Shown here: positions 18,889-60,002 of the stretch, one piece after another
How positions within the stretch are numbered: the stretch's first letter is position 1
How the letters are laid out: every line of letters begins with the position of its first letter
Source of the DNA: an uncultured virus (IMG/VR IMGVR_UViG_3300027970_000021)
Lineage: Duplodnaviria > Heunggongvirae > Uroviricota > Caudoviricetes
DNA: 64,000 nt
Strand: one strand, 5' to 3'
IMG/VR virus record: IMGVR_UViG_3300027970_000021
Span: 1-64,000 of that record
The notes under the pieces: model-generated
What the model was told of the DNA's origin: nothing
Database searches by the model: none
What the model saw: only the letters and a program-made list of their open reading frames with translations
Translations under genes and position numbers: made by a program

Positions 18889-18890
18889 AA

Positions 18891-20153
18891 TTAGTTTCCG
18901 ACCCTCTCGACGTTGAAATAAGTATTTGCAGTAGTTCCCGAAATTGTGAGTGTGCTTGCCGAGTTGTTTCCAAGGCCGTATAGGAAGATTTCAACGTAAT
19001 CCCCAGCATTCAACTGAAGCGTCGTGCTTCCATTGAACGCGTTGATTGTCGTTGCGGCAGATGTTCTGTACCCAAACAGACGAGCGGACGCTCCGTTTTT
19101 GTAGAGGTAAAGCCCGTAATCAGATGCGAGCACGTTAGCTGAGGCGAGCAGGACTGCGGAGCTTATGCGGTACTTACCCGATACGGGTGCAGTGAATCTG
19201 CTGTTTGCTGAGCTAAATGATCCGGTCGTGTCAAACACTGCGGAAGAAAAAGCTACCTTAACGAAACTATTATTCGTCGCGATCCCTGTTTGGTTAGACC
19301 CTCCAAGTGTTGCATCCATCGCGACTGTTTCACTCGCCGCGATCTGCGACGGGCCGGAGATACGCGAGATTGAGAAGTAGTTGTCAACAACACTACCTCC
19401 GACATTCAATGCTCCACCTGAGTTTTGGAAAACTTGAATCCCTACCGTGTCCCCTGCATTGAACAAATATTCTGTTGCACCATTCAAAAACGTACCTGCA
19501 GAAGCCGTAGGGTCGAATATGTATGCCAGTGTGCGGATATTGCTTCCGTTTACACGCAGACGAACCTCACGACCGTTCGTCGAGCTTGCGGCAAAACTTA
19601 CTTGAGTCGTAATCCTATACCAGCCGGGGACTGGAATCGTGTAGAGACTTGTACCGGTATTCCAAGCCCCGTGCGTGTCGCTGATTGCGGCATCGAACGC
19701 TACGAGTGTTCCGGTGCTGTCTGGAATTGACTGAGTGGCTGCGCGGCCTGTAGTCATTGCCACGACGCGAGTGTCCGTCTCAGACGACATCTGCACTTGA
19801 GACGACCATCCGGTGATGGGGACGAGGAAAGATCCGCCAAAAACCGTGTTGTTGGCCCAAGCCGTCCCTAACGTGCCATTGAAATAATTATCTGCCTGTT
19901 GGCTAATGATTGCGACCGTTGTTGGAGAACCTGTGGCTACGAGAATATTGCCTGACCATGGGGTTTTAGATGCGGTAAGCGCCCCCACAACAGAGTTGTT
20001 TACGGCTCTAGTTATGTCCATAGAAAGGCCGCTTGGCAGCGAAATAGAAACTGGTGATCCAGAATTTGTTCCAGAAGTAACTGTAAACATGACTTCAAGA
20101 GAATCACCTACGCGCCGATACTTGGCGATAGATGCAGAAACAGTTCCTAGGCC
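18891..20153. repeat. direct repeat copy 1 (~1.26 kb; identical core 19762-20153)
   Basis: Aligned by eye to 57153-58415 at constant offset 38262; weaker protein-level similarity continues to ~20700. Confidence 0.97.
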
Positions 20154-20831
20154 AACGTATGTCGGAGTGTAGCTCTGCCAGTCCGTGACTGGCGTTCCCT
20201 GCGTGATGATCTGCGGAGAGACGCGGACGTCGGATAGCGCCATCGTGTAGGCGGATGCCGACGTGCTGCCAACGTGGATACAGAGGCGGTAGCTGGTCGA
20301 GTTAGAGGCTGCCTGGAAAGTGCCTCTCCAACTTTGTTGAACAGTGGTGCTTTCAATCGAAGAAGGGGCCGGTTGAATCAAAATCGAGTTGGTAACATCG
20401 TAGATCCAGACCGAAAGATCGCTCGTGGCGTAAGTCCCGCTGACTACCTCGTAGGGGAACGTAATTTGCAGGACTTTACCTTTGTCGGAATTATCAATCG
20501 TGAATGCATTCGAGACCCCGTTGCCTTGCCGGTTGTTTGCATCCTTGACGAGGTTGAAGTCAGCTCCCGGACGAAGCGGCGTTGTGGTCGAGCGCGAGAT
20601 CGCAAACGTAGGGCTACCGCCCGTGCAATCGACCGGAGAGCTGGCTGCCGAATCAGCATACCCCGCCCATCCGAGAGTATCTTTTCTAGCGTAGGCGTTT
20701 TTTATGTAGTTGCGGGAAGAGCTTGATCCGCTGTCGAGGAAATCTGCATCTAAAAACCTAGGGGTTTGCGCAAACGTAGTGCTCGCCCCAAGGGCTGCCG
20801 CTGCCAGTAAGAGGCGTTTGAAAAATTTCAT
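18891..20831 (-). CDS. C1q/TNF-like tandem-domain adhesin with N-terminal signal peptide (chimeric at repeat)
   Basis: MKFFKRLLLAAAALGASTTFA signal-like start; two C1q-like domains (YTIPVPGWYRI, FTAPVSGKYRI, LNAGDYVEI); AAGGAG RBS. Confidence 0.75.
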   Translation of the reverse strand: MKFFKRLLLAAAALGASTTFAQTPRFLDADFLDSGSSSSRNYIKNAYARKDTLGWAGYADSAASSPVDCTGGSPTFAISRSTTTPLRPGADFNLVKDANNRQGNGVSNAFTIDNSDKGKVLQITFPYEVVSGTYATSDLSVWIYDVTNSILIQPAPSSIESTTVQQSWRGTFQAASNSTSYRLCIHVGSTSASAYTMALSDVRVSPQIITQGTPVTDWQSYTPTYVGLGTVSASIAKYRRVGDSLEVMFTVTSGTNSGSPVSISLPSGLSMDITRAVNNSVVGALTASKTPWSGNILVATGSPTTVAIISQQADNYFNGTLGTAWANNTVFGGSFLVPITGWSSQVQMSSETDTRVVAMTTGRAATQSIPDSTGTLVAFDAAISDTHGAWNTGTSLYTIPVPGWYRITTQVSFAASSTNGREVRLRVNGSNIRTLAYIFDPTASAGTFLNGATEYLFNAGDTVGIQVFQNSGGALNVGGSVVDNYFSISRISGPSQIAASETVAMDATLGGSNQTGIATNNSFVKVAFSSAVFDTTGSFSSANSRFTAPVSGKYRISSAVLLASANVLASDYGLYLYKNGASARLFGYRTSAATTINAFNGSTTLQLNAGDYVEIFLYGLGNNSASTLTISGTTANTYFNVERVGN

Positions 20832-36229: not shown

Positions 36230-36485
36230 TTTCGCTATCCTCCACGATTTTACGCAACCGCTCCGGGTTCACGTTTATAAGCTTCAGGATGCGGAGCACG
36301 ACATTGCGCTCCCCCTCCCAAAAAATATGACGGTTGGGAGCTGCCGGATCAAACGTGCACGACAGGACGTGATGCTGTTTGATTAAATCACGCAGCACGC
36401 GCTCCCCTGCCTGAGACGAAAAGATTTGCTTGTAGTCCTTCACACGCGCGAGCGCGGAATTCTCGACTTCTTTATTGTCAGCCAC
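36219..36485 (-). CDS. small head-assembly protein (Bbp19-like)
   Basis: YKQIFSSQAGERVLRDL...EGERNVVLRI; follows portal. Confidence 0.7.
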   Translation of the reverse strand: MADNKEVENSALARVKDYKQIFSSQAGERVLRDLIKQHHVLSCTFDPAAPNRHIFWEGERNVVLRILKLINVNPERLRKIVEDSENGE

Positions 36486-42052: not shown

Positions 42053-42144
42053 TCCCCCTGCAAATAATCCTTGACTCTCAACGTCCCAACTATCATTATC
42101 AAATGTACCAACAGCCCTAAAAGCCGAATTGGAGCGGCTAAATC

Positions 42145-42399
42145 ATGAAATACCGATTTAAAACCACGTTGATAGCAACCTTGCTCGCAGGGAGCCTTGG
42201 GGTTTCCTCTTCTCCTGCAAATGCGATCGCGAAGCCGCGCATCTCCCTGGAAGATGCCGTCGAAAAGCTTCGTGTAAAGTATTCGATCATGGATGCATCC
42301 GAGAACATGCGTGCACGTCACAAGCAAGAACGAGCGGAACTAAAAGAGCGCCAAAAAACTGAGCGCGAATCTCTCAAGTTCCAATTGGGGCGCAAATGA
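42145..42399 (+). CDS. small exported protein with coiled-coil tail
   Basis: GGAGCGG RBS; signal-like MKYRFKTTLIATLLAGSLG...ANA. Confidence 0.6.
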   Translation: MKYRFKTTLIATLLAGSLGVSSSPANAIAKPRISLEDAVEKLRVKYSIMDASENMRARHKQERAELKERQKTERESLKFQLGRK

Positions 42400-45045: not shown

Positions 45046-45414
45046 ATGGAAATCAGTGCAAATGAAATTGAAATCAACGGCCAAAAGTACGTGAAGAAAG
45101 GCACACAGTCGCAGGCAACATCGCCTGAAGGACTTCCCTACGTCATCATCCGCAGCGAGGGGGCTGGCGTCTTTGCCGGTTACTTGAAAGAGCAGAATGG
45201 TCAGGAAGTCGTGATCCTTGAGTCTCGTCGTCTTTGGTATTGGTCTGGTGCCGCATCGCTCAGTCAGCTTGCCATTGACGGTACATCGAAGCCCAAAGAC
45301 TGCAAGTTCCCCGAGGCTGTGTCGTCACAGAAGATTTTCAAGGTGCTTGAGATCATCAATGTGACCCAGAAAGCAAAAGACTCGATTGCGAGCGTGAAGC
45401 CGTGGCAACTGTAG
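45046..45414 (+). CDS. conserved phage protein (DUF6948-like)
   Basis: YVIIRS..AGVFAG...SRRLWYWSGAASLSQLA.DG; AAGGAG RBS. Confidence 0.7.
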   Translation: MEISANEIEINGQKYVKKGTQSQATSPEGLPYVIIRSEGAGVFAGYLKEQNGQEVVILESRRLWYWSGAASLSQLAIDGTSKPKDCKFPEAVSSQKIFKVLEIINVTQKAKDSIASVKPWQL

Positions 45415-45623
45415 AGGTTGATTCCGGCTCCGGCGACGGCTCCGGCGACGGCTACGGCTACGGCTCCGGCGACGGCGACGGCTCCGGCTACGGCTCCGGC
45501 GACGGCGACGGCTCCGGCTACGGCGACGGCTACGGCTCCGGCTACGGCGACGGCTCCGGCGACGGCGACGGCTCCGGCGACGGCGACGGCTACGGCTCCG
45601 GCTACGGCGACGGCTACGGTTGA
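45402..45623 (+). CDS. Gly-Asp/Ser/Tyr dipeptide-repeat protein
   Basis: ORF of GS/GD/GY dipeptides overlapping the DUF6948-like stop. Confidence 0.55.
   Translation: MATVEVDSGSGDGSGDGYGYGSGDGDGSGYGSGDGDGSGYGDGYGSGYGDGSGDGDGSGDGDGYGSGYGDGYG
45425..45619. repeat. hexamer mosaic repeat (GGCTCC/GGCGAC/GGCTAC)
   Basis: About 32 tandem GGCNNC units read directly. Confidence 0.9.
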
Positions 45624-45657
45624 TCTATGAAAACTTTTCGCAAAGCCTCCAGCAACC

Positions 45658-46002
45658 GTGCCGCAAAGACGCCGGGGGTGGCGAGTGATTAGCGACTGGC
45701 ACATGCAGGATGACCGCAAGTCAGGGAAAGTGATCAAAGTCCGCAAGACTTTACGCCCCATGGACGAGGCAGCCTCGGATGCGTGGCTAAAGAAGCTCGG
45801 CGAATGGATCGAGGCCAATCCTCCCCCTGCCAGTGGCGTGGCCCTAAAAATGGCAGAAGAGCGCACGACAAACAAGATCGTGTGGTGGGCTCTCAATACC
45901 TACGGTAATGTCCAACTCGCTGCCGACAAATTGGGTATGCTGAGATCAACTCTCTTTGAGCGTATGCGGGCTCAGGGAATTAAATGGGAGCGGAAGAGAT
46001 GA
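45658..46002 (+). CDS. Fis-type helix-turn-helix protein
   Basis: AL...GNVQLAADKLGMLRSTLFERMR.GI; start uncertain. Confidence 0.75.
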   Translation: MPQRRRGWRVISDWHMQDDRKSGKVIKVRKTLRPMDEAASDAWLKKLGEWIEANPPPASGVALKMAEERTTNKIVWWALNTYGNVQLAADKLGMLRSTLFERMRAQGIKWERKR

Positions 46003-46289
46003 TTATTGAAGTATCGACCTACACCGACGAAGACGAATTGGTTGAATGCAAGTTCGATGTTTGGCTCCCCGGAGGCGACGACACTCCGCAAGCGACATTC
46101 GTCGAGGGTTGGAAAGACGGGCCCGCATTGAGAGAGGATCTGTACGATACGGCGTGGCTCAGACGTGCTGGCATCTACGATGAATTAGTCGAGGCAGCCT
46201 GCGCGAAGTATGATCCGGTGCTTGACTCAGAGCTTGCGGATATTGAGAAGGGTGACAACGCCTTGGATCTCGCGAGGGAGCTAGATTAA
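45999..46289 (+). CDS. acidic hypothetical protein
   Basis: ATGA overlap; GGAGCGG RBS; Asp/Glu-rich. Confidence 0.55.
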   Translation: MIIEVSTYTDEDELVECKFDVWLPGGDDTPQATFVEGWKDGPALREDLYDTAWLRRAGIYDELVEAACAKYDPVLDSELADIEKGDNALDLARELD

Positions 46290-46323
46290 AAAAAGGGCTC
46301 CTGGTTTTTAGCCAGGAGCCCTT
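46288..46323 (-). terminator. intrinsic terminator (U-tract on minus strand)
   Basis: AAGGGCTCCTGG-CTAAAAA-CCAGGAGCCCTT then T-run. Confidence 0.8.
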
Positions 46324-46368
46324 AACGGCGTTAACAGATACCATTGGAGCGGACTGAGAGACGCCTGA
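46288..46368 (-). ncRNA. candidate antisense small RNA
   Basis: Lies between a minus-strand promoter and minus-strand terminator; ends estimated. Confidence 0.45.
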
Positions 46369-46374
46369 TCCGGT

Positions 46375-46403
46375 AAGGTACTAGCGCAAATTAAAATCGT
46401 CAA
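46375..46403 (-). promoter_or_regulatory. sigma70-like promoter
   Basis: TTGACG-17 nt-TACCTT. Confidence 0.55.
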
Positions 46404-46439
46404 GTAAGTTTCTGTCCGGGGAGCGGAGGGGATCGTCAT

Positions 46440-48809
46440 TTGTTACAGATTTTGGGGCTGAGGGAAAAGTTCAATTCAAAGCTCGGCATACGTAGACCTA
46501 GCGAGGATTTCTTCGCGAAGGGCTGGCGCGCAATGGACTTGCGCACGATGTTTGCCTCCCTGCCAGATGTGCTGGCGCAGATCCCGGAAGATCAGCGTTG
46601 GAACCTGTTCTACACGATGCACCATGTGTTTGAAGAGCCAGGCCGGCGCATGGAGCGCATGGAGGCCTACGCCTTTGACATCGATCAGATCCCCGGCTTC
46701 TCGGGTACGCGCGATCAGGTACGCGAGATTGCGGGTGTGGTTGCGCGCACGCTAGGCCTCCCCCTGGAAGAACTTGGCGTTGTCTGCAGCGGGAACGGCG
46801 TGCACGTTCTCGTATATTTGGACCCGAGTTGTTGGCAGACATCGCCGGAATATTTTGAAAAGAACCGGGGGCATTACCGGGCAGTCTGCGACAACATCAA
46901 TCGAGCCCTGGATGTGGCGGGCTACGGGGGCGCAAAAGCTGACCCCGCAATCTTTGATCAGGCGCGAATTCTCAGGCTCCCCGGAACCCTCAATCGCAAG
47001 ACGAAAGAGGGGCAGTTACGTGAGCGTAACTGTTACCTCTTGCAGGGGGATTTAAAGCCCCAGAAAATCGATATCTCCGAGCTCTCGGGGATCCCGGAAG
47101 TCAGTCCCGAGGACGCAATCCCCGAGGCGCAGATGGCTAGGTTCCCGGAGCCAGACCCGGAAGGGGTGCTGGGCGGCTGCAGTTTCCTGAAAGAGTGCAA
47201 GGCGCTGCCTAAGACGGTGACGGAGCCCAACTGGTACGCCATGCTCTCGATCATTGGTCGCTTGCCTAATGGCCGCGAGCTTGCGCATGAATATTCAAAA
47301 GGCCATCCAAACTACACCCCTCAGGAGACTGAGGCGAAGCTTGATCAGGCGATGGCCCAAGCGGGCCCCCGCACCTGCCAGAACGTGCAGGATCTTTGGG
47401 GCAAATGTAAGCAGTGCCCCTATTACGGAAAGATTCCGAGTCCGATCGTTATCAAGGGCGAGAACTATATCGCAACCGAGAAGACGGGCTTTCACCACAT
47501 GACGACGGGCCAGGACGGGAGACCGAAGCCTGGCAAAGCCGACTGGGATGGGCTGAGAAAGTTCTTTCAGCGCAAACACCCCTACGCAACGCTTGCCGAT
47601 GGCGAGTATCTAGTGACCTGGACCGGCACCCACTGGCAGGAGTATTCAAAGGTTGAGGCAAAGGCATTTGCGCAGAAGCACTTCAGGCCGGTAGCGGATA
47701 CGAATAAAGCGAATGAGTTCCTGGGAATTTTGCTACGCAATGAGGTGCGCCCCCGGGGTTGGACGCAACATGGGACGAAGGGGAAATTGAACTTTCTTAA
47801 TGGAACCCTGGAGCCCCGTACGATGTCGTTTGGTCCGCACAACCGAGACGACGGATTCATGAACGTGATTCCCTACGCGTATGATCCGAAGGCTGCGGCT
47901 CCTCGGTTTGAAAAGTTCCTTGATGATGTGACATGCGGGCACCGGGAGCTTCGCGAAATCCTCCTGCAATATATCGGATACTCGCTCTCAAACGATGCGA
48001 TATGGGAACAGAAATGCCTCATCCTGCAGGGGGAGGGACGCAACGGAAAATCCACTCTAATGCAGGTAGTGCGCGAGCTTGCAGGTGAGGGTAACTCTGC
48101 GTCGCTGACTCTCACTGAGCTTGAAAAAGACACGAACCGTTTCTCGCTTGACGGTGCGTTCTTTAATATGGCCGAAGAAGCTCCCACGCGTGGGATGCTC
48201 GAGAGCGGAATCTTCAAGACGCTCATTGGCGGCGGGAGCTTCCAGGTAAAGAAGCTTTACTCGCAGCCGTACTCAATTCAAAATCGTGCGAAGCTCTGGC
48301 TTGCGTGTAACGACATGCCTCGCTTCAACGACTTCACGGTGGGGATGTTCCGCCGGCTTGTGATCGTGCCTTTCCAGGCGAAGTTTGAGGGAGCAAACGT
48401 CGATAAGAACATCGGAGCAAAGCTCAGCGAAGAGCTCCCCGGAATCTTCAATCTTGCGATGGCAGCCTACGGGCGGATGCGCGCAAACGGAGGACTCCTG
48501 GATTCGCAATTGGTGCAGGAGCAGGCCGACATGTACCGGCTTGAACAGGACTCGGTGTACAACTGGTGGCAGGATAATGTCGAAGTTGTACCCATGTCGG
48601 AGACGGCCCCCCGGGTTGACTCAAGTAAGTTATTCCAGGAGTACGCAATGCACATGCGCCAGTCGGAGGAGAAGCCTTTGTCTGCTCAGCAATTCCAAAA
48701 GCGTGTGCGCACATTTGTGAAAGATATTGAAGCTAGGCGCGTGCGATCAAATGGCGTGCGTTGGCTCATAGGCATTTCGTTATTGACAAGGCGTATGGAA
48801 AACTTCTAG
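46440..48809 (+). CDS. primase-helicase (primase + PriCT-like + D5/SF3 helicase)
   Basis: FDID, SGNGVH, RILRLPGT primase motifs; CxxC; GEGRNGKST Walker A; LACN motif C. Confidence 0.9.
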   Translation: MLQILGLREKFNSKLGIRRPSEDFFAKGWRAMDLRTMFASLPDVLAQIPEDQRWNLFYTMHHVFEEPGRRMERMEAYAFDIDQIPGFSGTRDQVREIAGVVARTLGLPLEELGVVCSGNGVHVLVYLDPSCWQTSPEYFEKNRGHYRAVCDNINRALDVAGYGGAKADPAIFDQARILRLPGTLNRKTKEGQLRERNCYLLQGDLKPQKIDISELSGIPEVSPEDAIPEAQMARFPEPDPEGVLGGCSFLKECKALPKTVTEPNWYAMLSIIGRLPNGRELAHEYSKGHPNYTPQETEAKLDQAMAQAGPRTCQNVQDLWGKCKQCPYYGKIPSPIVIKGENYIATEKTGFHHMTTGQDGRPKPGKADWDGLRKFFQRKHPYATLADGEYLVTWTGTHWQEYSKVEAKAFAQKHFRPVADTNKANEFLGILLRNEVRPRGWTQHGTKGKLNFLNGTLEPRTMSFGPHNRDDGFMNVIPYAYDPKAAAPRFEKFLDDVTCGHRELREILLQYIGYSLSNDAIWEQKCLILQGEGRNGKSTLMQVVRELAGEGNSASLTLTELEKDTNRFSLDGAFFNMAEEAPTRGMLESGIFKTLIGGGSFQVKKLYSQPYSIQNRAKLWLACNDMPRFNDFTVGMFRRLVIVPFQAKFEGANVDKNIGAKLSEELPGIFNLAMAAYGRMRANGGLLDSQLVQEQADMYRLEQDSVYNWWQDNVEVVPMSETAPRVDSSKLFQEYAMHMRQSEEKPLSAQQFQKRVRTFVKDIEARRVRSNGVRWLIGISLLTRRMENF

Positions 48810-48812: not shown

Positions 48813-48828
48813 AGTGGGTGGAGCGGCA

Positions 48829-50301
48829 ATGATCGAATTCGATAAATTATGGGACCACCAAAAGCGAGCCGTCGCGCTCGCCATGCAGCAGCGAGACTTC
48901 GCGCTGTTCCACGACATGGGCGCGGGCAAGACGGGCACGATGATCAATATCCTGCGCCGCCGCTATGGCGAGGCCGGGCGCCTGCGCCGCACGCTGATCG
49001 TCTCGCCGCTCATCACGCTTGATAACTGGAAGAAAGAATTCGGGCAATTCTCGAAGGTGGATCCCCGGCACATTCTTATCTTGAAAGGCGCGGGCCGTAA
49101 GCGTGCAAAGGATTTCATGAAGTTTGTTTCGGACCCCGTGACCGAACGACTTGTTTTCAACCGCGTGGTCATCATGAACTACGAGTCGGTTCAAATGAAG
49201 GAACTGTATGACGCAATCAAAGCCTGGAATCCTGAGATCATTGTTTTTGATGAAGCTCATCGACTCAGAAATCACCAGTCAAAACGCGCGCGAGCTTGCG
49301 CGAATCTGGCTGACATCGCAAAGCACCGATATCTGCTTACGGGATCGCCGATCCTTAATTCAGCAATGGACGTGTTCTTCCAGTACCGCTGTCTCGACCT
49401 TGGAGACACGTTTGGGCAGAACTTTTACGCCTTCCGAAACCGATACTTTGAAGACCGAAACTCTGGCTGGGCTAGTAAGCCTGGTTACTTCCCCGACTTT
49501 GAAGCTCGTCCTGAGGCTTTTGCCGATCTCCACGCGCGCATGTACAAAGACGGCAGAGGGCTTGCCCGCGCCCACCGAGTGATGAAGAAAGACTGCCTTG
49601 ACCTACCCCCACTGGTGAAGACCAAGATCGAAGTAGAGCTCTCGCCGGATCAACGGAAGATGTACAAGGAAATGTCAGACGAGTTCCTGACATTTGTTGA
49701 GCGCGAGAAACAAACGGGCACACCACTAGCAGTGGTGGCACAGCTTGCAATCACGAAGGCGCTCCGCTTGCAGCAGATCGTAACCGGCTTCTGCAAGGCG
49801 GAAGACGGAGTTGAGTATGAGATTGCAGGGGGGAATCCCAGGCTCGAGGCGCTAGAGGAATTGCTTGAAGACTTGGCTCCGAACGGCAAAGTAATTGTGT
49901 GGGCATGCTTTAAGCAGAACTACCAACAGATTGCACGCGTGTGTGACAAGCTGAAGCTCCCTTACCGGATGATCCATGGTGAGATTAGGAACGCTGATAA
50001 GCAGATAGCCATGGAAGAGTTCCGCAAAGACGAATCGATCAAGGTGATGATTGCAAACCAGGGGGCTGCAGGCATTGGCGTGAATTTGGTTGAAGCCCCG
50101 TATTCTGTGTTTTTCTCCCGGAACTTTTCGCTTGAGCAAGATACTCAGGCCGAGGCACGCAACTATCGCGGTGGATCTGAGATGCATACAAGTGTGACTC
50201 GCTATGATATTGTTGCGCGAAATAGTATTGACGAGTTAATCGCCGACGCGTTAGCAGGTAAGCAGAAAATCGCAGATACCATTCTCGATTGGAAAATATA
50301 A
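48829..50301 (+). CDS. SNF2-like SF2 helicase
   Basis: DMGAGKT, DEAH, LTGSP, GIGVNL, QAEARNYR motifs. Confidence 0.92.
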   Translation: MIEFDKLWDHQKRAVALAMQQRDFALFHDMGAGKTGTMINILRRRYGEAGRLRRTLIVSPLITLDNWKKEFGQFSKVDPRHILILKGAGRKRAKDFMKFVSDPVTERLVFNRVVIMNYESVQMKELYDAIKAWNPEIIVFDEAHRLRNHQSKRARACANLADIAKHRYLLTGSPILNSAMDVFFQYRCLDLGDTFGQNFYAFRNRYFEDRNSGWASKPGYFPDFEARPEAFADLHARMYKDGRGLARAHRVMKKDCLDLPPLVKTKIEVELSPDQRKMYKEMSDEFLTFVEREKQTGTPLAVVAQLAITKALRLQQIVTGFCKAEDGVEYEIAGGNPRLEALEELLEDLAPNGKVIVWACFKQNYQQIARVCDKLKLPYRMIHGEIRNADKQIAMEEFRKDESIKVMIANQGAAGIGVNLVEAPYSVFFSRNFSLEQDTQAEARNYRGGSEMHTSVTRYDIVARNSIDELIADALAGKQKIADTILDWKI

Positions 50302-50310
50302 GGAGCGGAC

Positions 50311-56409: not shown

Positions 56410-57153
56410 CTATCCCCCGCAGACAGCCATTCTAAACGGATTTTTCGGATCGCGGTAGTAGCCTTTGACCCAGTTTTCTCGTGGCCCGCGGTTTGTTTCA
56501 TGCACTTTTATGCAGCCATCAATCCACGCTTTCCCCCACCAGGGGAGCTTCACTTTCCGTAGGAATTTGATGCGGAGATCAGCCAGCCCCCAGTTTTTTG
56601 AGAGCCGCAGCCCTAGCCCCAGCCAGAGAAGCGAGATCGGATCGGGCTCCTCACCTGCTGCCAGCTCAAGGATTGCCCAGTCACCAGGCTGAAGCATCTC
56701 AGTCCACGACCAACGTCCGGGATCGCGGGGGTTGTACTGAAACCAGTGCTTGCGCCCATACTCGAGAATCGCCCAGGCATGCCCTGAATTGTAGTGGTGC
56801 GAGAGGATTGCAAGCGACACCACGTTGTCGTGCGACTGCCCGATGTCAAGCGGCACGAGGTCGCCTTCTGCATTCTCAAATCTGAGCTCGTGCCCAGGCC
56901 ACCGCCCGTGGAGCCCCGGCTCAATCTCAGTCAGCTCCATGTGGCGCTTAAAAGCCAGGAACCCTTCCACTGATCTCGCCTCCGGGTCAAGCTCAAGGAG
57001 CCCCTGCGCCAGCGCGTAGCTCGCGTTCTCGTTGGTTGAGCGCACAGGATATTTCGGACTCAACGGGGGAGCTAGGTTGCCCGGCTCATCTTCAAACAAA
57101 CCCCCGCCATCGGGAGCAATGTAGCGCTCGACGAAGGCGGAGAGGTGGTCCAT
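56410..57153 (-). CDS. hypothetical helical protein
   Basis: 247 aa; start overlaps the fibre stop codon (TAATG). Confidence 0.6.
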   Translation of the reverse strand: MDHLSAFVERYIAPDGGGLFEDEPGNLAPPLSPKYPVRSTNENASYALAQGLLELDPEARSVEGFLAFKRHMELTEIEPGLHGRWPGHELRFENAEGDLVPLDIGQSHDNVVSLAILSHHYNSGHAWAILEYGRKHWFQYNPRDPGRWSWTEMLQPGDWAILELAAGEEPDPISLLWLGLGLRLSKNWGLADLRIKFLRKVKLPWWGKAWIDGCIKVHETNRGPRENWVKGYYRDPKNPFRMAVCGG

Positions 57154-58415
57154 TAGTTTCCGACCCTCTCGACGTTGAAATAAGTATTTGCAATAACTCC
57201 CGAAATTGTGAGTGTGCTTGCCGAGTTGTTTCCAAGGCCGTATAGGAAGATTTCAACGTAATCCCCAGCATTCAACTGAAGCGTCGTGCTTCCATTGAAC
57301 GCGTTGATTGTCGTTGCGGCAGATGTTCTGTACCCAAACAGACGAGCGGACGCTCCGTTTTTATATAGGTAAAGCCCGTAATCGGATGCGAGCACGTTCG
57401 CGGAGGCAAGTAGGACTGCAGCACTTACGCGATACTTACCTGACACCGGGGCCGTGAACCGACTATTGCCGGAGCTAAACGATCCAGTTGTATCGAAGAC
57501 TGCGGAAGAGAAGGCCACCTTAACGAAACTATTGTTCGTTGCTACTCCTGTTTGGTTAGCCCCTCCAAGTGTTGCATCCATCGCGACTGTCTCACTGGCC
57601 GCGATCTGCGATGGGCCGGAGATTCGGGAGATGGAGAAGTAGTTGTCAGCAACACCTCCTCCGACGTTTAATGCTCCACCTGAGTTTTGGAAGACTTGAA
57701 TCCCTACCGTGTCCCCTGCGTTAAACAAATATTCTGTTGCACCATTCAAAAACGTACCTGCAGAAGCCGTAGGGCCGAATATGTATGCCAGTGTCCGGAT
57801 ATTGCTTCCGTTTACACGCAGACGAACCTCACGACCGTTGGTCGAGCTTGCGGCAAAAGCTACTTGAGTCGTAATCCTATACCAGCCAGGGACTGGAATC
57901 GTATAGAGACTTGTACCGGTATTCCAAGCCCCGTGCGTGTCGCTGATTGCGGCGTCGAAAGCTACCAGTGTTCCGGTACTGTCTGGAATCGACTGAGTGG
58001 CTGCGCGGCCTGTAGTCATCGCTACGACGCGAGTGTCCGTCTCAGACGACATCTGCACTTGAGACGACCATCCGGTGATGGGGACGAGGAAAGATCCGCC
58101 AAAAACCGTGTTGTTGGCCCAAGCCGTCCCTAACGTGCCATTGAAATAATTATCTGCCTGTTGGCTAATGATTGCGACCGTTGTTGGAGAACCTGTGGCT
58201 ACGAGAATATTGCCTGACCATGGGGTTTTAGATGCGGTAAGCGCCCCCACAACAGAGTTGTTTACGGCTCTAGTTATGTCCATAGAAAGGCCGCTTGGCA
58301 GCGAAATAGAAACTGGTGATCCAGAATTTGTTCCAGAAGTAACTGTAAACATGACTTCAAGAGAATCACCTACGCGCCGATACTTGGCGATAGATGCAGA
58401 AACAGTTCCTAGGCC
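57153..58415. repeat. direct repeat copy 2 (identical core 58024-58415)
   Basis: Matches 18891-20153 at offset 38262. Confidence 0.97.
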
Positions 58416-60002
58416 GACAAATGTAGGAGTGTAGCTCTGCCAATCCGTAACAGGCGTTCCCTGCGTAATAATTTGAGGCCCGACAACAACATCATCAAAT
58501 GCTAGTGTGTATGCACTAGTGGACACGCTGCTAACATGAAGAATTAAGCGATAGCTGGTGCTGTTTGAGGCAGTTTGGAAGGTTCCACGCCATTTACTGC
58601 CACCAATGAAATTTTCAATAGAACTTGGTGCTGGCTGAATGAGTGTTGCATTTGTAATATCATAAATCCAAACAGTCATGTCGCTTGTAGCAAAGGTTCC
58701 GGAGACAACTTCGTAATCAAACGAAATGCTTTGTACTTGTGCTTTGTCAATGGAGGCGATTGTGAAGTCATAAGAGACGCCTTGTCCTTGACGGTTCGCG
58801 GCATCCTTTACAAAATTAAAATCATAAGCTCCGCGAAGAGGCGTTGTGCTCGAAACGTCCCATGTTACGGTAGCAATGCCTCCAGTCCCATCAACGGGAG
58901 CTGTTCCTGGAGCGTTAGTATATGTGGTCCAGCCGGTAGTAAGGCCAGACTCAGCATCGCCTTCTAGAACATAATTAACTACTTGCGTCTTATCTAAACG
59001 ATAAGGAGCAGCACTAGAAGCGTCGTTCTTAAAATAAGGGTGTCCATCAGATCCGGGATAGAAGCTTCCATAACCAGAAGCAACAGTAGGACCAGTGGTA
59101 GGAGTTGAAAGTTCTACCATACGAGCGGCGTCTTCTAAACTAATAAGACCCGTTCCGTTAGCGTTAATGCTAATATTCCCATTAGTATCCGTGCTAGAAA
59201 TTTCATTACCATCAACGCGAATGTTATCGACATCTAGCTGCGTAATTCCTGACATGGCTCCGGCATCATTAAGAGCAACGGTACTACTTTGAATAAAGTT
59301 ACCAGTCGTTCCATCCCAACGAGCAACGCGGTCATCAACAACAACACCAGAAGCCGCAATGCCCCCAGAACCACCGACTACGCGCCATCGTGCGGTTGAA
59401 TCGTCATATTTAAGAATGACAACACCGCCGTTTTTAAGGGAAATAGTCGAACCGTTTCCAGTAATAATACGGTTGGCGGCAGAAGGATTTGAATCTTCGT
59501 TTGGAATACTAATATCACTGCCGCTAGCATTGATGACATAAAGAACTTTATCTCCGGAAGCTGCAACAATACCGCGCAACGACGTGACAGCGCCGGTAAG
59601 GCGAATCGAACCATAAGTAGCGTTTACAAGAGCGTCAACGTTGCCAGTAGAGGCGTCGTTTTGGTCAGTGACTACAATACCATTACCGTCTAATAGAAGA
59701 CCGGACGAGATTACCGTTCCAGAACCATTACGAGCAAGGATTTTATTAGCGTCACCAACTTCAGTTTTAAGTGAAGATAGTGCAAGATCTTGTACGGTGT
59801 TGCTGTCTCCGTCAATCGTTTTATTTGTAAGCGTGGCTGCGTGGGCTTCCGTTACAACCGGACTAGAAGATGTTCCATTATGATAATTAAGCTTTCCATC
59901 TCCGCTAGTGACATCCAAATCACCCTGGTCGTCGGCTGTGGAGGCGGATTCTGGACGAAGGTTTAAACCCTTCCAAATTTTAGTGAAAACATTGGCAGAC
60001 AT
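57153..60002 (-). CDS. tail fibre/adhesin with tandem C1q-like domains (chimeric at repeat)
   Basis: 949 aa; TLTNKTID fibre motif; C-terminal ~420 aa nearly identical to 18891-20831 product. Confidence 0.8.
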   Translation of the reverse strand: MSANVFTKIWKGLNLRPESASTADDQGDLDVTSGDGKLNYHNGTSSSPVVTEAHAATLTNKTIDGDSNTVQDLALSSLKTEVGDANKILARNGSGTVISSGLLLDGNGIVVTDQNDASTGNVDALVNATYGSIRLTGAVTSLRGIVAASGDKVLYVINASGSDISIPNEDSNPSAANRIITGNGSTISLKNGGVVILKYDDSTARWRVVGGSGGIAASGVVVDDRVARWDGTTGNFIQSSTVALNDAGAMSGITQLDVDNIRVDGNEISSTDTNGNISINANGTGLISLEDAARMVELSTPTTGPTVASGYGSFYPGSDGHPYFKNDASSAAPYRLDKTQVVNYVLEGDAESGLTTGWTTYTNAPGTAPVDGTGGIATVTWDVSSTTPLRGAYDFNFVKDAANRQGQGVSYDFTIASIDKAQVQSISFDYEVVSGTFATSDMTVWIYDITNATLIQPAPSSIENFIGGSKWRGTFQTASNSTSYRLILHVSSVSTSAYTLAFDDVVVGPQIITQGTPVTDWQSYTPTFVGLGTVSASIAKYRRVGDSLEVMFTVTSGTNSGSPVSISLPSGLSMDITRAVNNSVVGALTASKTPWSGNILVATGSPTTVAIISQQADNYFNGTLGTAWANNTVFGGSFLVPITGWSSQVQMSSETDTRVVAMTTGRAATQSIPDSTGTLVAFDAAISDTHGAWNTGTSLYTIPVPGWYRITTQVAFAASSTNGREVRLRVNGSNIRTLAYIFGPTASAGTFLNGATEYLFNAGDTVGIQVFQNSGGALNVGGGVADNYFSISRISGPSQIAASETVAMDATLGGANQTGVATNNSFVKVAFSSAVFDTTGSFSSGNSRFTAPVSGKYRVSAAVLLASANVLASDYGLYLYKNGASARLFGYRTSAATTINAFNGSTTLQLNAGDYVEIFLYGLGNNSASTLTISGVIANTYFNVERVGN

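What the first reader, a model, noticed from the sequence alone, without database searches (positions are those of the whole stretch)
46288..46403. Candidate ~80-nt antisense RNA complementary to the RBS of five inner-phage genes
Seen: within a plus-strand gene run there is a minus-strand promoter (TTGACG-17-TACCTT) and a minus-strand terminator about 80 nt downstream. The predicted RNA contains GUCCGCUCCAAU. Its complement GGAGCGG lies just upstream of the starts at 42145 (10-nt match ATTGGAGCGG), 45999, 46440 (primase-helicase), 48829 (helicase) and 50311 (9-nt match GGAGCGGAC). Inference: a trans-acting sRNA silencing early and replication genes. It could provide dormancy control in a phage with no obvious CI-like repressor.
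Basis: partly seen in the sequence, partly recalled or inferred. Interest (0 to 1): 0.75.

Follow-up and report, generated by a model that had tools for sequence, protein, structure and literature searches.

The report
Phage small RNA masking primase start
An uncultured lake-water phage and many distant relatives keep a tiny backward-pointing RNA gene just ahead of their DNA primase gene, and its exposed stretch mirrors the ribosome-binding site of that gene, so it probably turns down production of the phage's replication proteins.

Summary
The minus-strand terminator (46323-46293) is the strongest in 11 kb. TTGACG-17-TACCTT lies where stated, though it matches only 8 of 12 consensus positions. 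GGAGCGG precedes the five named starts.

The motif is not over-represented (8 copies, 7.9 expected). Its placement is non-random: 5 of 16 GGAG-type ribosome-binding sites carry CGG, against 3 of 311 other GGAG sites.

Relatives give the main evidence. Among 58 non-redundant loci with a related primase (30-42% identity), 21 carry a minus-strand terminator 60-240 nt upstream of the primase start. The -200..-101 bin holds 18 on the minus strand and 3 on the plus strand. Promoter-like sites lie at the right distance in 13 of 21. Each candidate RNA tends to match its own primase ribosome-binding site: matches of 8 nt or more occur in 8 of 21 own pairs against 14 of 420 cross pairs (permutation 0 of 20000). 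The seeds differ between phages and lie mostly in loops.

I read this as a real, undescribed family of ~70-85-nt phage sRNAs that repress primase translation. Targets beyond primase are phage-specific and less certain. No transcript data exist. "Dormancy control" is unsupported. The "inner phage" is a separate 38.3-kb genome joined by assembly. The scan reached the same reading earlier on other DNA (e1-5983189).

The parts
46398..46403 (-). -35-like hexamer TTGACG of the small-RNA promoter
   Evidence: Sequence read. It matches 5 of 6 consensus positions. Analogous TTGnnn hexamers occur in relatives.
46375..46380 (-). -10-like hexamer TACCTT, 17 nt after the -35
   Evidence: It matches only 3 of 6 positions (T1, A2, T6), so the pair was not called by the scan.
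46288..46368 (-). Predicted ~81-nt small RNA. The start is inferred from the -10. The end lies in the U tract.
   Evidence: Fold of -34.6 kcal/mol, z -5.3. No Rfam family reaches its gathering score.
46327..46365 (-). 5' stem-loop (GGCGU/ACGCC stem) that carries the seed in its upper part
   Evidence: MFE and centroid structures. Seed unpaired probability is 0.65 against 0.45 for all windows of this RNA.
46343..46354 (-). Seed GUCCGCUCCAAU. The core UCCGCUCC lies at 46353-46346.
   Evidence: It is the complement of the tag found at five RBSs.
46286..46323 (-). Intrinsic terminator: hairpin 46323-46293 followed by a seven-U tract. The tract overlaps the TAA stop of the upstream plus-strand gene.
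   Evidence: 12 pairs, 8 G-C. Hairpin energy -22.9 kcal/mol.
46420..46427 (+). GGAGCGGA in the RBS of the P4-type primase-helicase gene (TTG 46440). This is the target conserved across relatives.
   Evidence: The start is fixed by the homologue consensus xIQILGLR.
46440..48809 (+). P4-family primase-helicase gene
   Evidence: PHROG DNA primase families down to 1e-81. 162 homologues carry PF19263 and PF08706.
42128..42137 (+). ATTGGAGCGG, 7 nt before ATG 42145 (84-aa protein, unknown). Candidate extra target.
45987..45994 (+). GGAGCGGA, 4 nt before ATG 45999 (96-aa protein, unknown). Candidate extra target.
48819..48826 (+). TGGAGCGG, 2 nt before ATG 48829 (helicase). Candidate extra target.
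50302..50310 (+). GGAGCGGAC abutting ATG 50311 (DUF7307, Pam3 gp33-like). Candidate extra target.

Best explanation
The 150-nt gap before the primase gene holds a self-contained minus-strand gene for a ~80-nt non-coding RNA. The gene has a sigma-70-like promoter, a 5' stem-loop and an intrinsic terminator.

The upper part of the 5' stem-loop exposes UCCGCUCC. This pairs with GGAGCGGA in the Shine-Dalgarno region of the primase-helicase mRNA. It also pairs over 8-10 nt with the same tag at four other non-structural genes. Pairing there should block 30S binding and lower translation.

The RNA gene lies on the replicating genome, so its dose rises with copy number. I infer that it acts as a negative feedback or shut-off on replication proteins. 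This resembles plasmid copy-control countertranscripts, but it works through a short trans seed.

Shown by computation: the anatomy, its conservation in position and strand, and seed-RBS co-variation. Inferred: transcription, repression, and the feedback logic.
For: 1. Anatomy.

2. Position and strand are conserved in relatives whose primase is only 30-42% identical.
- First set: 14 of 31 loci have a minus-strand terminator (dG <= -13) in -210..-60, against 1 of 31 on the plus strand. Background is 0.063 per 150 nt, binomial 1.4e-9.
- Enlarged set of 58 non-redundant loci: 18 minus-strand and 3 plus-strand terminators in the -200..-101 bin, against 0-5 minus-strand in each of the nine upstream bins from -1200 to -400 and 5 in the -100..-1 bin. 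21 of 58 have one in -240..-60.

3. Promoter-like sites (8 or more of 12 positions) lie at the right distance in 13 of 21 loci, against 20.6% of random 75-nt windows, p 4.6e-5. Predicted RNAs are 56-99 nt, mostly 66-84 nt, with two hairpins.

4. Co-variation, measured as the longest exact match between the RNA region and the primase initiation region.
- Loci with a terminator: own mean 7.29, cross mean 5.46. Matches of 8 nt or more: 8 of 21 own, 14 of 420 cross. Matches of 9 nt or more: 4 of 21 own, 3 of 420 cross. Permutation 0 of 20000. Inverted control mean 5.0.
- All 58 loci, no terminator filter: matches of 9 nt or more in 7 of 58 own pairs and 49 of 3306 cross pairs. Permutation 0 of 20000.
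- Seeds differ between phages: GGAGCGGA, AAAAGGACAAG, AAGGGATCA, GCATTGGG, AAACCTGCGAGGG and a 16-mer in L022.
- The alignable pair L018/L019 shows a C:G to U:A double change at seed and RBS.

5. Seeds are more often unpaired than other windows of the same RNA: 0.62 against 0.41, n=12, one-sided Wilcoxon 0.01. Several sit in unusually large terminator loops.

6. In the window the tag marks 5 of 44 initiation regions, all in the non-structural plus-strand block.
Against: - No transcript has been seen, and no RNA run holds the stretch.
- The window's -10 hexamer is poor (3 of 6), and the promoter scan did not call the site.
- Only 21 of 58 relatives show the unit with my detector. 9 of those 21 have own matches of just 5-6 nt.
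- One 7-nt seed (L084) lies in a stem, with unpaired probability 0.00.
- The tags contain SD cores (GGAG, AAGGA), which are enriched at starts anyway.
- The automated count of extra RBS copies is only about twofold above cross-locus seeds: 12 RBS hits in 12 loci against 61 in 132 pairs.
- A conserved second target, the gene after primase, was not found: own 5.38 against cross 5.25, n=8, with rough start calls.
- RNA duplex energies did not single out the five genes.
- In the window the seed is partly held in two weak 3-bp inner helices.
Confidence: 0.68

Rival explanations
1. The RNA is real but acts only in cis, as a countertranscript. It would form a full 80-bp duplex with read-through plus-strand mRNA in the primase leader (RNase III cleavage or transcriptional interference, as with lambda OOP), or serve as a leader or attenuator for a downstream minus-strand gene. 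The short RBS match would then be incidental.
For: - In the window the upstream genes are on the plus strand, and no good plus-strand promoter lies in the gap. Primase mRNA may therefore include the full complement of the RNA.
- In L015, L018, L019 and L020 a minus-strand gene with the same RBS tag starts 50-100 nt after the terminator.
Against: - In several relatives (L012, L016, L018, L019, L020, L022) a plus-strand TTGACA-17-TTAACCTA promoter-like site lies between the RNA gene and primase (read by eye). The primase leader there would not overlap the RNA gene.
- Cis action does not explain why seeds track the primase RBS across phages, nor why they sit in loops.
Confidence: 0.12
2. The repeats act at the DNA level, as operators or iterons bound by a phage protein. 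Candidates are the primase-helicase itself or the small HTH-like protein encoded at 45658-46002. The hairpin would be only a terminator or structural element.
For: - P4-type primases bind repeated octamers at their origin (recalled, not tested).
- The repeats flank back-to-back promoter-like sites.
- The protein from 45658-46002 has a sub-threshold Fis-type HTH, 21.1 bits against a cut-off of 22.
Against: - Copies elsewhere lie in mRNA sense 2-16 nt before start codons on whichever strand the gene is on. This points to an RNA-level reader.
- The non-RBS copy falls in hairpin loops of a promoter-terminator unit with a strong strand bias, 18 minus against 3 plus.
- There are only two copies near the primase, not an iteron array.
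Confidence: 0.08
3. There is no regulatory element. The hairpin is an orphan or bidirectional terminator after the upstream gene, and the GGAGCGG matches are SD-biased coincidence.
For: - The total count of the 7-mer equals expectation, 8 against 7.9.
- The promoter match is weak.
- Any 45-nt window matches about two initiation regions at 7 nt by chance.
Against: - Placement statistics.
- Conserved position, strand and promoter-like sites in relatives.
- Own-versus-cross seed tests with 0 of 20000 permutations.
Confidence: 0.07

Closest known systems
c4 antisense RNA of phages P1 and P7
   Same: A ~77-nt structured phage RNA. Its short loop sequences pair with the ribosome-binding region of a nearby phage gene and block its translation. 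It is encoded next to its target without overlapping it.
   Different: c4 is cut out of the same-strand operon transcript. Here the RNA is on the opposite strand with its own promoter-like site and terminator. The target is a replication gene, not an antirepressor. No Rfam family, and hence no C4 model, reached threshold in the window or in 17 relatives.
Lambda OOP RNA and P22 sar RNA (passages of review PMC12197685)
   Same: Short terminator-ended RNAs transcribed against the flow of an early operon. OOP lies just before the replication genes.
   Different: OOP and sar act by full antisense overlap with cII or ant. Here the conserved feature is a short seed against an RBS 70-110 nt away. In several relatives the target leader would not overlap the RNA gene.
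Plasmid copy-control countertranscripts (CopA of R1, RNAI of IncB/I, ColE2 RNAI; recalled)
   Same: A 70-100-nt, two-hairpin RNA with an intrinsic terminator. It is encoded in front of the replication-initiator gene, with loop-presented target recognition. Its dose is proportional to copy number and it represses initiator translation.
   Different: Those RNAs are fully complementary to the rep leader. This one is a phage element with a short trans seed and, in the window, the same tag on four further genes.
Start-associated sequences (SAS) of Cluster K mycobacteriophages (Pope et al. 2011, PMC3203893; passages read)
   Same: A phage-specific asymmetric tag containing an SD core plus bases that cannot pair with 16S rRNA. 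It lies a few nt before the starts of a subset of non-structural genes. The paper leaves its reader open ('either RNA or protein').
   Different: SAS is 13 bp on 15-20 genes. Here the tag is 7-10 nt on 5 genes, and a candidate RNA reader is identified. My quick look at Cluster K was inconclusive.
T4 RegA translational repressor (recalled)
   Same: A phage-encoded factor that shuts off translation of a set of early and replication genes by occupying their initiation regions.
   Different: RegA is a protein. Here the proposed reader is an RNA.

Membership tests
Any described RNA family (Rfam 15, including phage antisense RNAs) | Covariance-model score at or above the family's gathering score | tested here: not met
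   No match at gathering score in the 64-kb window or in 17 relatives' loci. The best sub-threshold hits on the minus strand were BjrC68 at 21.6 bits (cut-off 39) and suhB/mmgR at 16.3 bits (cut-off 41).
Trans-acting base-pairing sRNA with intrinsic terminator | Own promoter upstream of the RNA | tested here: inconclusive
   The window site matches 8 of 12 positions and was not called by the scan. In relatives, sites with 8 or more of 12 occur in 13 of 21 loci against 20.6% of random windows.
Trans-acting base-pairing sRNA with intrinsic terminator | Rho-independent terminator with a U tail at the 3' end | tested here: met
   12-bp stem followed by seven U. Conserved in place and strand in 21 of 58 relatives.
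Trans-acting base-pairing sRNA with intrinsic terminator | Accessible seed whose complementarity to the target is kept in evolution | tested here: met
   Own-versus-cross tests. Seed unpaired probability 0.62 against 0.41, n=12. A compensatory change occurs in the L018/L019 pair.
Trans-acting base-pairing sRNA with intrinsic terminator | Detectable transcript; chaperone (Hfq or ProQ) dependence | not testable with these tools
   No RNA run holds the stretch. The host is unknown.
Cis-antisense countertranscript (OOP or CopA type) | Full overlap with the target mRNA on the opposite strand | tested here: inconclusive
   Overlap is possible in the window if primase mRNA starts upstream. In L012, L016, L018, L019, L020 and L022 a plus-strand promoter-like site lies between the RNA gene and primase (by eye).
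P1/P7 c4-type RNA | Processed from the same-strand transcript that carries its target | tested here: not met
   The terminator and promoter-like sites are on the strand opposite to primase, 18 against 3 in the key bin.
SAS-like start-associated tag | An asymmetric motif extending the SD core, placed a few nt before the starts of a subset of non-structural genes and rare elsewhere | tested here: met
   GGAGCGG lies 2-13 nt before 5 starts, all in the plus-strand non-structural block. Five of the 7 copies outside the RNA gene are at starts. The sequence differs from the Cluster K SAS, so this is an analogue, not the same element.

The most novel reading that the evidence does not exclude
Many phages may mark a chosen set of non-structural genes with a private extension of the Shine-Dalgarno sequence. 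A small phage-encoded RNA carrying the mirror image in a hairpin loop would read this tag. This would be an RNA counterpart of T4 RegA and of plasmid copy-control RNAs, with seed and tags co-evolving lineage by lineage. If so, the unexplained start-associated sequences of Cluster K mycobacteriophages could have the same kind of reader. In Anaya the single reverse-orientation copy lies in the loop of a G+C hairpin in a conserved, unannotated gap. Two earlier notes of this scan on unrelated phages point the same way.
Probability: 0.25. Interest if true: 0.85.

Novelty: new variant of a known kind. Interest (0 to 1): 0.66.

Why it matters
Phage-encoded regulatory RNAs are known mostly from a few model temperate phages and mostly act on host genes or by full antisense overlap.

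Here comparative genomics alone defines an RNA family in uncultured aquatic podoviruses. It gives the family a specific, conserved target, the ribosome-binding site of the replication primase. It also shows lineage-specific co-variation of seed and target, which is the kind of evidence usually obtained only after experiments.

The finding suggests that phage genome replication can be self-limited by an RNA whose dose follows copy number. It also gives a concrete, testable candidate for what reads 'start-associated' tags in phage genomes, a question open since 2011 (PMC3203893).

I found no description in print:
- three full-text searches returned nothing on a phage RNA aimed at its own primase RBS (listings and abstract starts only);
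- a 2025 review of phage sRNAs has 0 occurrences of 'primase'.

Tried and rejected
- RNA evidence: the look-up of sequencing runs listed 12 lake-water DNA runs and no RNA holder.
- RNAduplex ranking of all 44 initiation regions against the seed region produced long gapped duplexes and did not single out the five genes. I rejected it as a measure.
- The count of initiation regions sharing any 7-mer with the 45-nt seed region is uninformative: 5 observed, null P(5 or more) = 0.055, because about 2 are expected by chance. I replaced it with the single-7-mer test.
- Conserved second target (the gene after primase): no signal. Own 5.38 against cross 5.25, n=8, permutation 8575 of 20000, with rough start calls.
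- Automated count of extra RBS copies of each seed in 12 relatives: 12 RBS hits among 37 extra occurrences, against 61 of 264 for cross-locus seeds. The enrichment is weak, and the classifier missed some by-eye cases.
- No close relatives for fine-scale covariation. megablast against phage records found nothing. tblastn found at most 29% identity. IMG/VR and metagenome scans gave only identical copies or at most 42% identity. The 50%-identical protein P0002 could not be fetched as DNA.
- Minus-strand ORFs 46308-46439 (43 aa) and 46159-46344 (61 aa) run into or through the terminator, and the 43-aa one has no Pfam hit. I did not treat them as genes. The 210-aa minus-strand ORF 45264-45896 overlaps a plus-strand DUF6948 gene (Pfam 1.5e-24) and was rejected.
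- I did not build a covariance model. The RNAs were picked by their hairpins, so stem covariation would be circular.
- Cluster K tangent: Ekdilam keeps the SAS consensus while its hairpin loop differs at 4 of 13 positions. Yuna and SirPhilip lack the hairpin. This gives no co-variation support there.

Full report
**Context**

The window is the first 64 kb of a single 70,060-bp contig. Positions ~20.8-57.2 kb have 53-63% G+C and the flanks about 37-48%.

The high-G+C part encodes a complete podovirus gene set on the minus strand: tail tube A and B, internal virion proteins, capsid, portal and terminase. On the plus strand it has a run of small genes followed by a P4-type primase-helicase (46440-48809), a helicase (48829-50301), Pam3 gp33/gp34-like proteins, an exonuclease and a family-A DNA polymerase. 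Its portal is 45% identical to those of HTVC010P-type pelagiphages. Its primase has no relative above 29% identity among 50,697 GenBank phage records. The DNA occurs in 12 lake-water runs.

**The observation**

- The minus-strand hairpin 46323-46293 (12 pairs, 8 G-C, then seven T) heads the list of 18 terminator-like sites in 41-52 kb.
- TTGACG (46403-46398) and TACCTT (46380-46375) are 17 nt apart on the minus strand. The pair matches only 8 of 12 consensus positions, so the promoter scan did not list it.
- An RNA from about 46368 to 46288 (81 nt) folds into a 5' stem-loop (GGCGU/ACGCC) and the terminator. The energy is -34.6 kcal/mol with z -5.3, and 0 of 200 shuffles do as well.
- GUCCGCUCCAAU lies in the upper part of the 5' stem-loop.
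- GGAGCGG, with 1-3 further matching bases, lies 2-13 nt before the starts at 42145, 45999, 46440, 48829 and 50311.
- The TTG start of the primase at 46440 fits the N-terminal consensus xIQILGLR of 25 aligned homologues.

**Is it more than chance?**

The 7-mer is not over-represented: 8 copies on both strands of the high-G+C phage against 7.9 expected. The placement is what stands out.
- Five of the 7 copies outside the RNA gene are at ribosome-binding sites (binomial 3e-9).
- CGG follows GGAG in 5 of 16 GGAG-type SDs against 3 of 311 other GGAG sites (Fisher 7e-6).
- GGAGCGG ties with the canonical AAGGAGA as the commonest 7-mer in the 44 initiation regions, with 5 each.
- Only 121 of 66182 random 45-nt windows outside initiation regions hold a 7-mer present in 5 or more of them.

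Late genes use AAGGAG-type SDs, and the CGG extension cannot pair with the usual 16S 3' end (established knowledge). The tag is therefore not simply the host anti-SD.

Two weaker tests failed to discriminate. The count of initiation regions sharing any 7-mer gave null P = 0.055. RNAduplex energies did not separate the five genes.

**Relatives**

A protein search found 162 primases at E <= 1e-20. The best non-self hit is 50% identical, and many lie on 38-48-kb contigs. With an alignment of 25 of them I fetched 80 IMG/VR loci and 80 metagenome loci.

Of these, 67 loci hold the primase N-terminus and at least 262 nt upstream. I dropped nine as more than 90% identical upstream, leaving 58. The other loci lack the N-terminus or the upstream DNA and were not examined.

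- In the first 31 loci, a minus-strand terminator (hairpin dG <= -13 plus a T run) lies in -210..-60 in 14, against 1 on the plus strand. Background is 0.063 per 150 nt, binomial 1.4e-9.
- In the 58 loci, the -200..-101 bin holds 18 minus-strand and 3 plus-strand terminators. The nine upstream bins from -1200 to -400 hold 0-5 minus-strand each, and the -100..-1 bin holds 5. Bins inside the primase gene hold 0-10.
- 21 of 58 loci have a terminator in -240..-60.
- Promoter-like sites matching 8 or more of 12 positions lie 15-90 nt upstream of these hairpins in 13 of 21 loci. The rate for random 75-nt windows of the same loci is 20.6% (p 4.6e-5). At 9 or more positions the figures are 6 of 21 against 4.3%.
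- The predicted RNAs are 56-99 nt, mostly 66-84 nt, with a 5' hairpin and the terminator.
- No Rfam family reaches threshold in the window or in 17 of these loci. Sub-threshold hits to BjrC68 and suhB/mmgR rest largely on the terminator.

**Seed-target co-variation**

This is the key result. I measured the longest exact match between each primase initiation region and the candidate RNA region on the plus strand. That match equals the complementarity of a minus-strand RNA to the mRNA.

- Loci with a terminator: own mean 7.29 against 5.46 for cross-locus pairs. Matches of 8 nt or more: 8 of 21 against 14 of 420. Matches of 9 nt or more: 4 of 21 against 3 of 420. Permutation 0 of 20000. The inverted-orientation control has mean 5.0.
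- All 58 loci, no terminator filter, whole -250..-45 region: matches of 9 nt or more in 7 of 58 own pairs against 49 of 3306 cross pairs. Matches of 10 nt or more: 4 of 58 against 12 of 3306. Permutation 0 of 20000 (the first set is).
- The seeds differ between phages: GGAGCGGA (window), AAAAGGACAAG (L019), AAGGGATCA (L015), GCATTGGG (L033), AAACCTGCGAGGG (L023), GCGAGATCAAAAGGAG (L022), GAGGAGAA (L087) and CTGGCAAGA (L114).
- L018 and L019 are the only RNA-bearing pair that can be aligned (74% over 210 nt). The base before GUCC is C in both the RNA and the anti-RBS of L018, and U in both of L019. This is a double change that keeps the pair.
- Seeds are more often unpaired than other windows of the same RNA: 0.62 against 0.41, n=12, one-sided Wilcoxon 0.01. 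In L015, L018, L019 and L020 they sit in unusually large terminator loops. In the window and L033 they sit in the 5' hairpin.
- Exceptions: the L084 seed is in a stem, L023 folded differently with the extra 5' sequence used in that run, and 9 of the 21 loci have only 5-6-nt matches.

**Further targets**

In the window the tag marks four further genes. In relatives, the chosen seed cores recur before other starts on either strand and always in mRNA sense: three more in L019 and one each in L015, L018, L020, L022 and L033. By eye, 11 of 13 extra copies are at such starts.

An automated count is weaker: 12 RBS hits in 12 loci against 61 in 132 cross-locus pairs. The gene after primase shows no conserved pairing. 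I therefore treat primase as the conserved target and the other genes as plausible, phage-specific additions.

**Mechanism**

The most likely reading is a non-coding RNA made by host RNA polymerase from the strand opposite to the replication genes. Its loop seed occupies the SD of the primase mRNA, and of the other tagged mRNAs, and lowers their translation.

The feedback idea is inference from analogy with plasmid countertranscripts: RNA dose follows genome copy number and caps replication-protein synthesis.

Rivals:
- Purely cis antisense or leader action, 0.12. This is possible in the window. It is contradicted where a plus-strand promoter-like site separates the RNA gene from primase and by the seed statistics.
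- DNA-level operators or iterons, 0.08. The mRNA-sense placement of other copies and the loop location speak against it.
- Coincidence, 0.07.

'Dormancy control' has no support. No integrase or CI-type repressor was seen among the ORFs scanned.

**Comparison with what is known**

- Functionally it is closest to P1/P7 c4 RNA (loop seeds against a neighbour's RBS; recalled) and to plasmid copy-control RNAs (recalled).
- Its placement recalls lambda OOP (passages of PMC12197685).
- It fails c4 membership, because it is on the opposite strand with its own terminator. It matches no Rfam family.
- The RBS tag resembles the start-associated sequences of Cluster K mycobacteriophages.
- Three full-text searches (listings and abstract starts) returned no phage RNA aimed at its own primase RBS. 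The 2025 review has 0 occurrences of 'primase'. Supplementary Table S1 of that review (38 sRNAs of unknown function) was not read.
- The scan had already noted this same sequence on another contig with the same reading (e1-5983189). That is an AI note, not independent evidence. All counts above are my own.

**Side results**

The contig is a chimera.
- Positions 18890 onward and 57152 onward are a direct repeat spaced 38,262 nt apart. It encodes tail-fibre C-termini that are 87% identical over 607 residues.
- Logan contig depth is 27.5 and 15.4 for the low-G+C side against 121.5 and 45.2 for the high-G+C side in runs X1 and X5. The repeat is broken into short pieces of summed depth.
- A loose end at 18890 reads into the sequence left of 57152. 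This closes a 38.3-kb circle.

The 'inner phage' is thus a separate, more abundant podovirus that shares a receptor-binding module with a second phage.

**Verdict**

This is a new variant of a known kind. Interest is 0.66 and confidence in the stated mechanism is 0.68.

Noticed in passing
window 18890-20831 and 57152-60002: The 70-kb contig is an assembly chimera of two phages. The two regions form a ~1.9-kb direct repeat (tail-fibre C-terminus, 87% aa identity, spacing 38,262 nt). Depth differs 3- to 4.4-fold between the low-G+C and high-G+C parts. A contig end at 18890 continues into the sequence left of 57152, which closes a 38.3-kb circle. The same primase also lies on 104.5-kb and 124-kb public contigs.
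   Followed up: yes
window 45402-45623 (+): A 73-aa ORF made almost wholly of (S/D/Y)-G dipeptide repeats: 13 registers of a 6-18-nt periodic repeat, with third-position G+C near 100%. Function unknown.
   Followed up: no
window 45658-46002 (+): A 114-aa protein, second gene upstream of the RNA gene, with a sub-threshold Fis-type HTH at its C-terminus (HTH_8, 21.1 bits against a cut-off of 22). It is a possible DNA-binding regulator of this region.
   Followed up: no
L012, L016, L018, L019, L020, L022: about -40 to -75 before the primase start: A shared plus-strand promoter-like motif, TTGACA-N17-TTAACCTA(G), lies back-to-back with the minus-strand RNA promoter so that the -35 boxes overlap. 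The window lacks it (read by eye).
   Followed up: partly
window 36258-36264 (-): One more mRNA-sense GGAGCGG lies 28 nt before ATG 36229 of a late gene (protease/scaffold-like), upstream of that gene's own SD. It could be a sixth target or chance.
   Followed up: no
L163 (Mycobacterium phage Anaya) 39745-39900: The single reverse-orientation copy of the Cluster K start-associated sequence lies in the 10-nt loop of a 6-bp G+C hairpin in the unannotated gp96-gp97 gap. It is about 100 nt downstream of a conserved TTGnCG-N17-TAGACT site. The region is conserved in 150 Cluster K records. However, Ekdilam's loop differs at 4 of 13 positions while its SAS is unchanged, and Yuna and SirPhilip lack the hairpin.
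   Followed up: partly
L015, L018, L019, L020: 50-100 nt beyond the RNA terminator, minus strand: A minus-strand gene starts just after the RNA terminator and carries the same RBS tag as the primase. Read-through transcripts could fold the seed onto that RBS in cis.
   Followed up: partly
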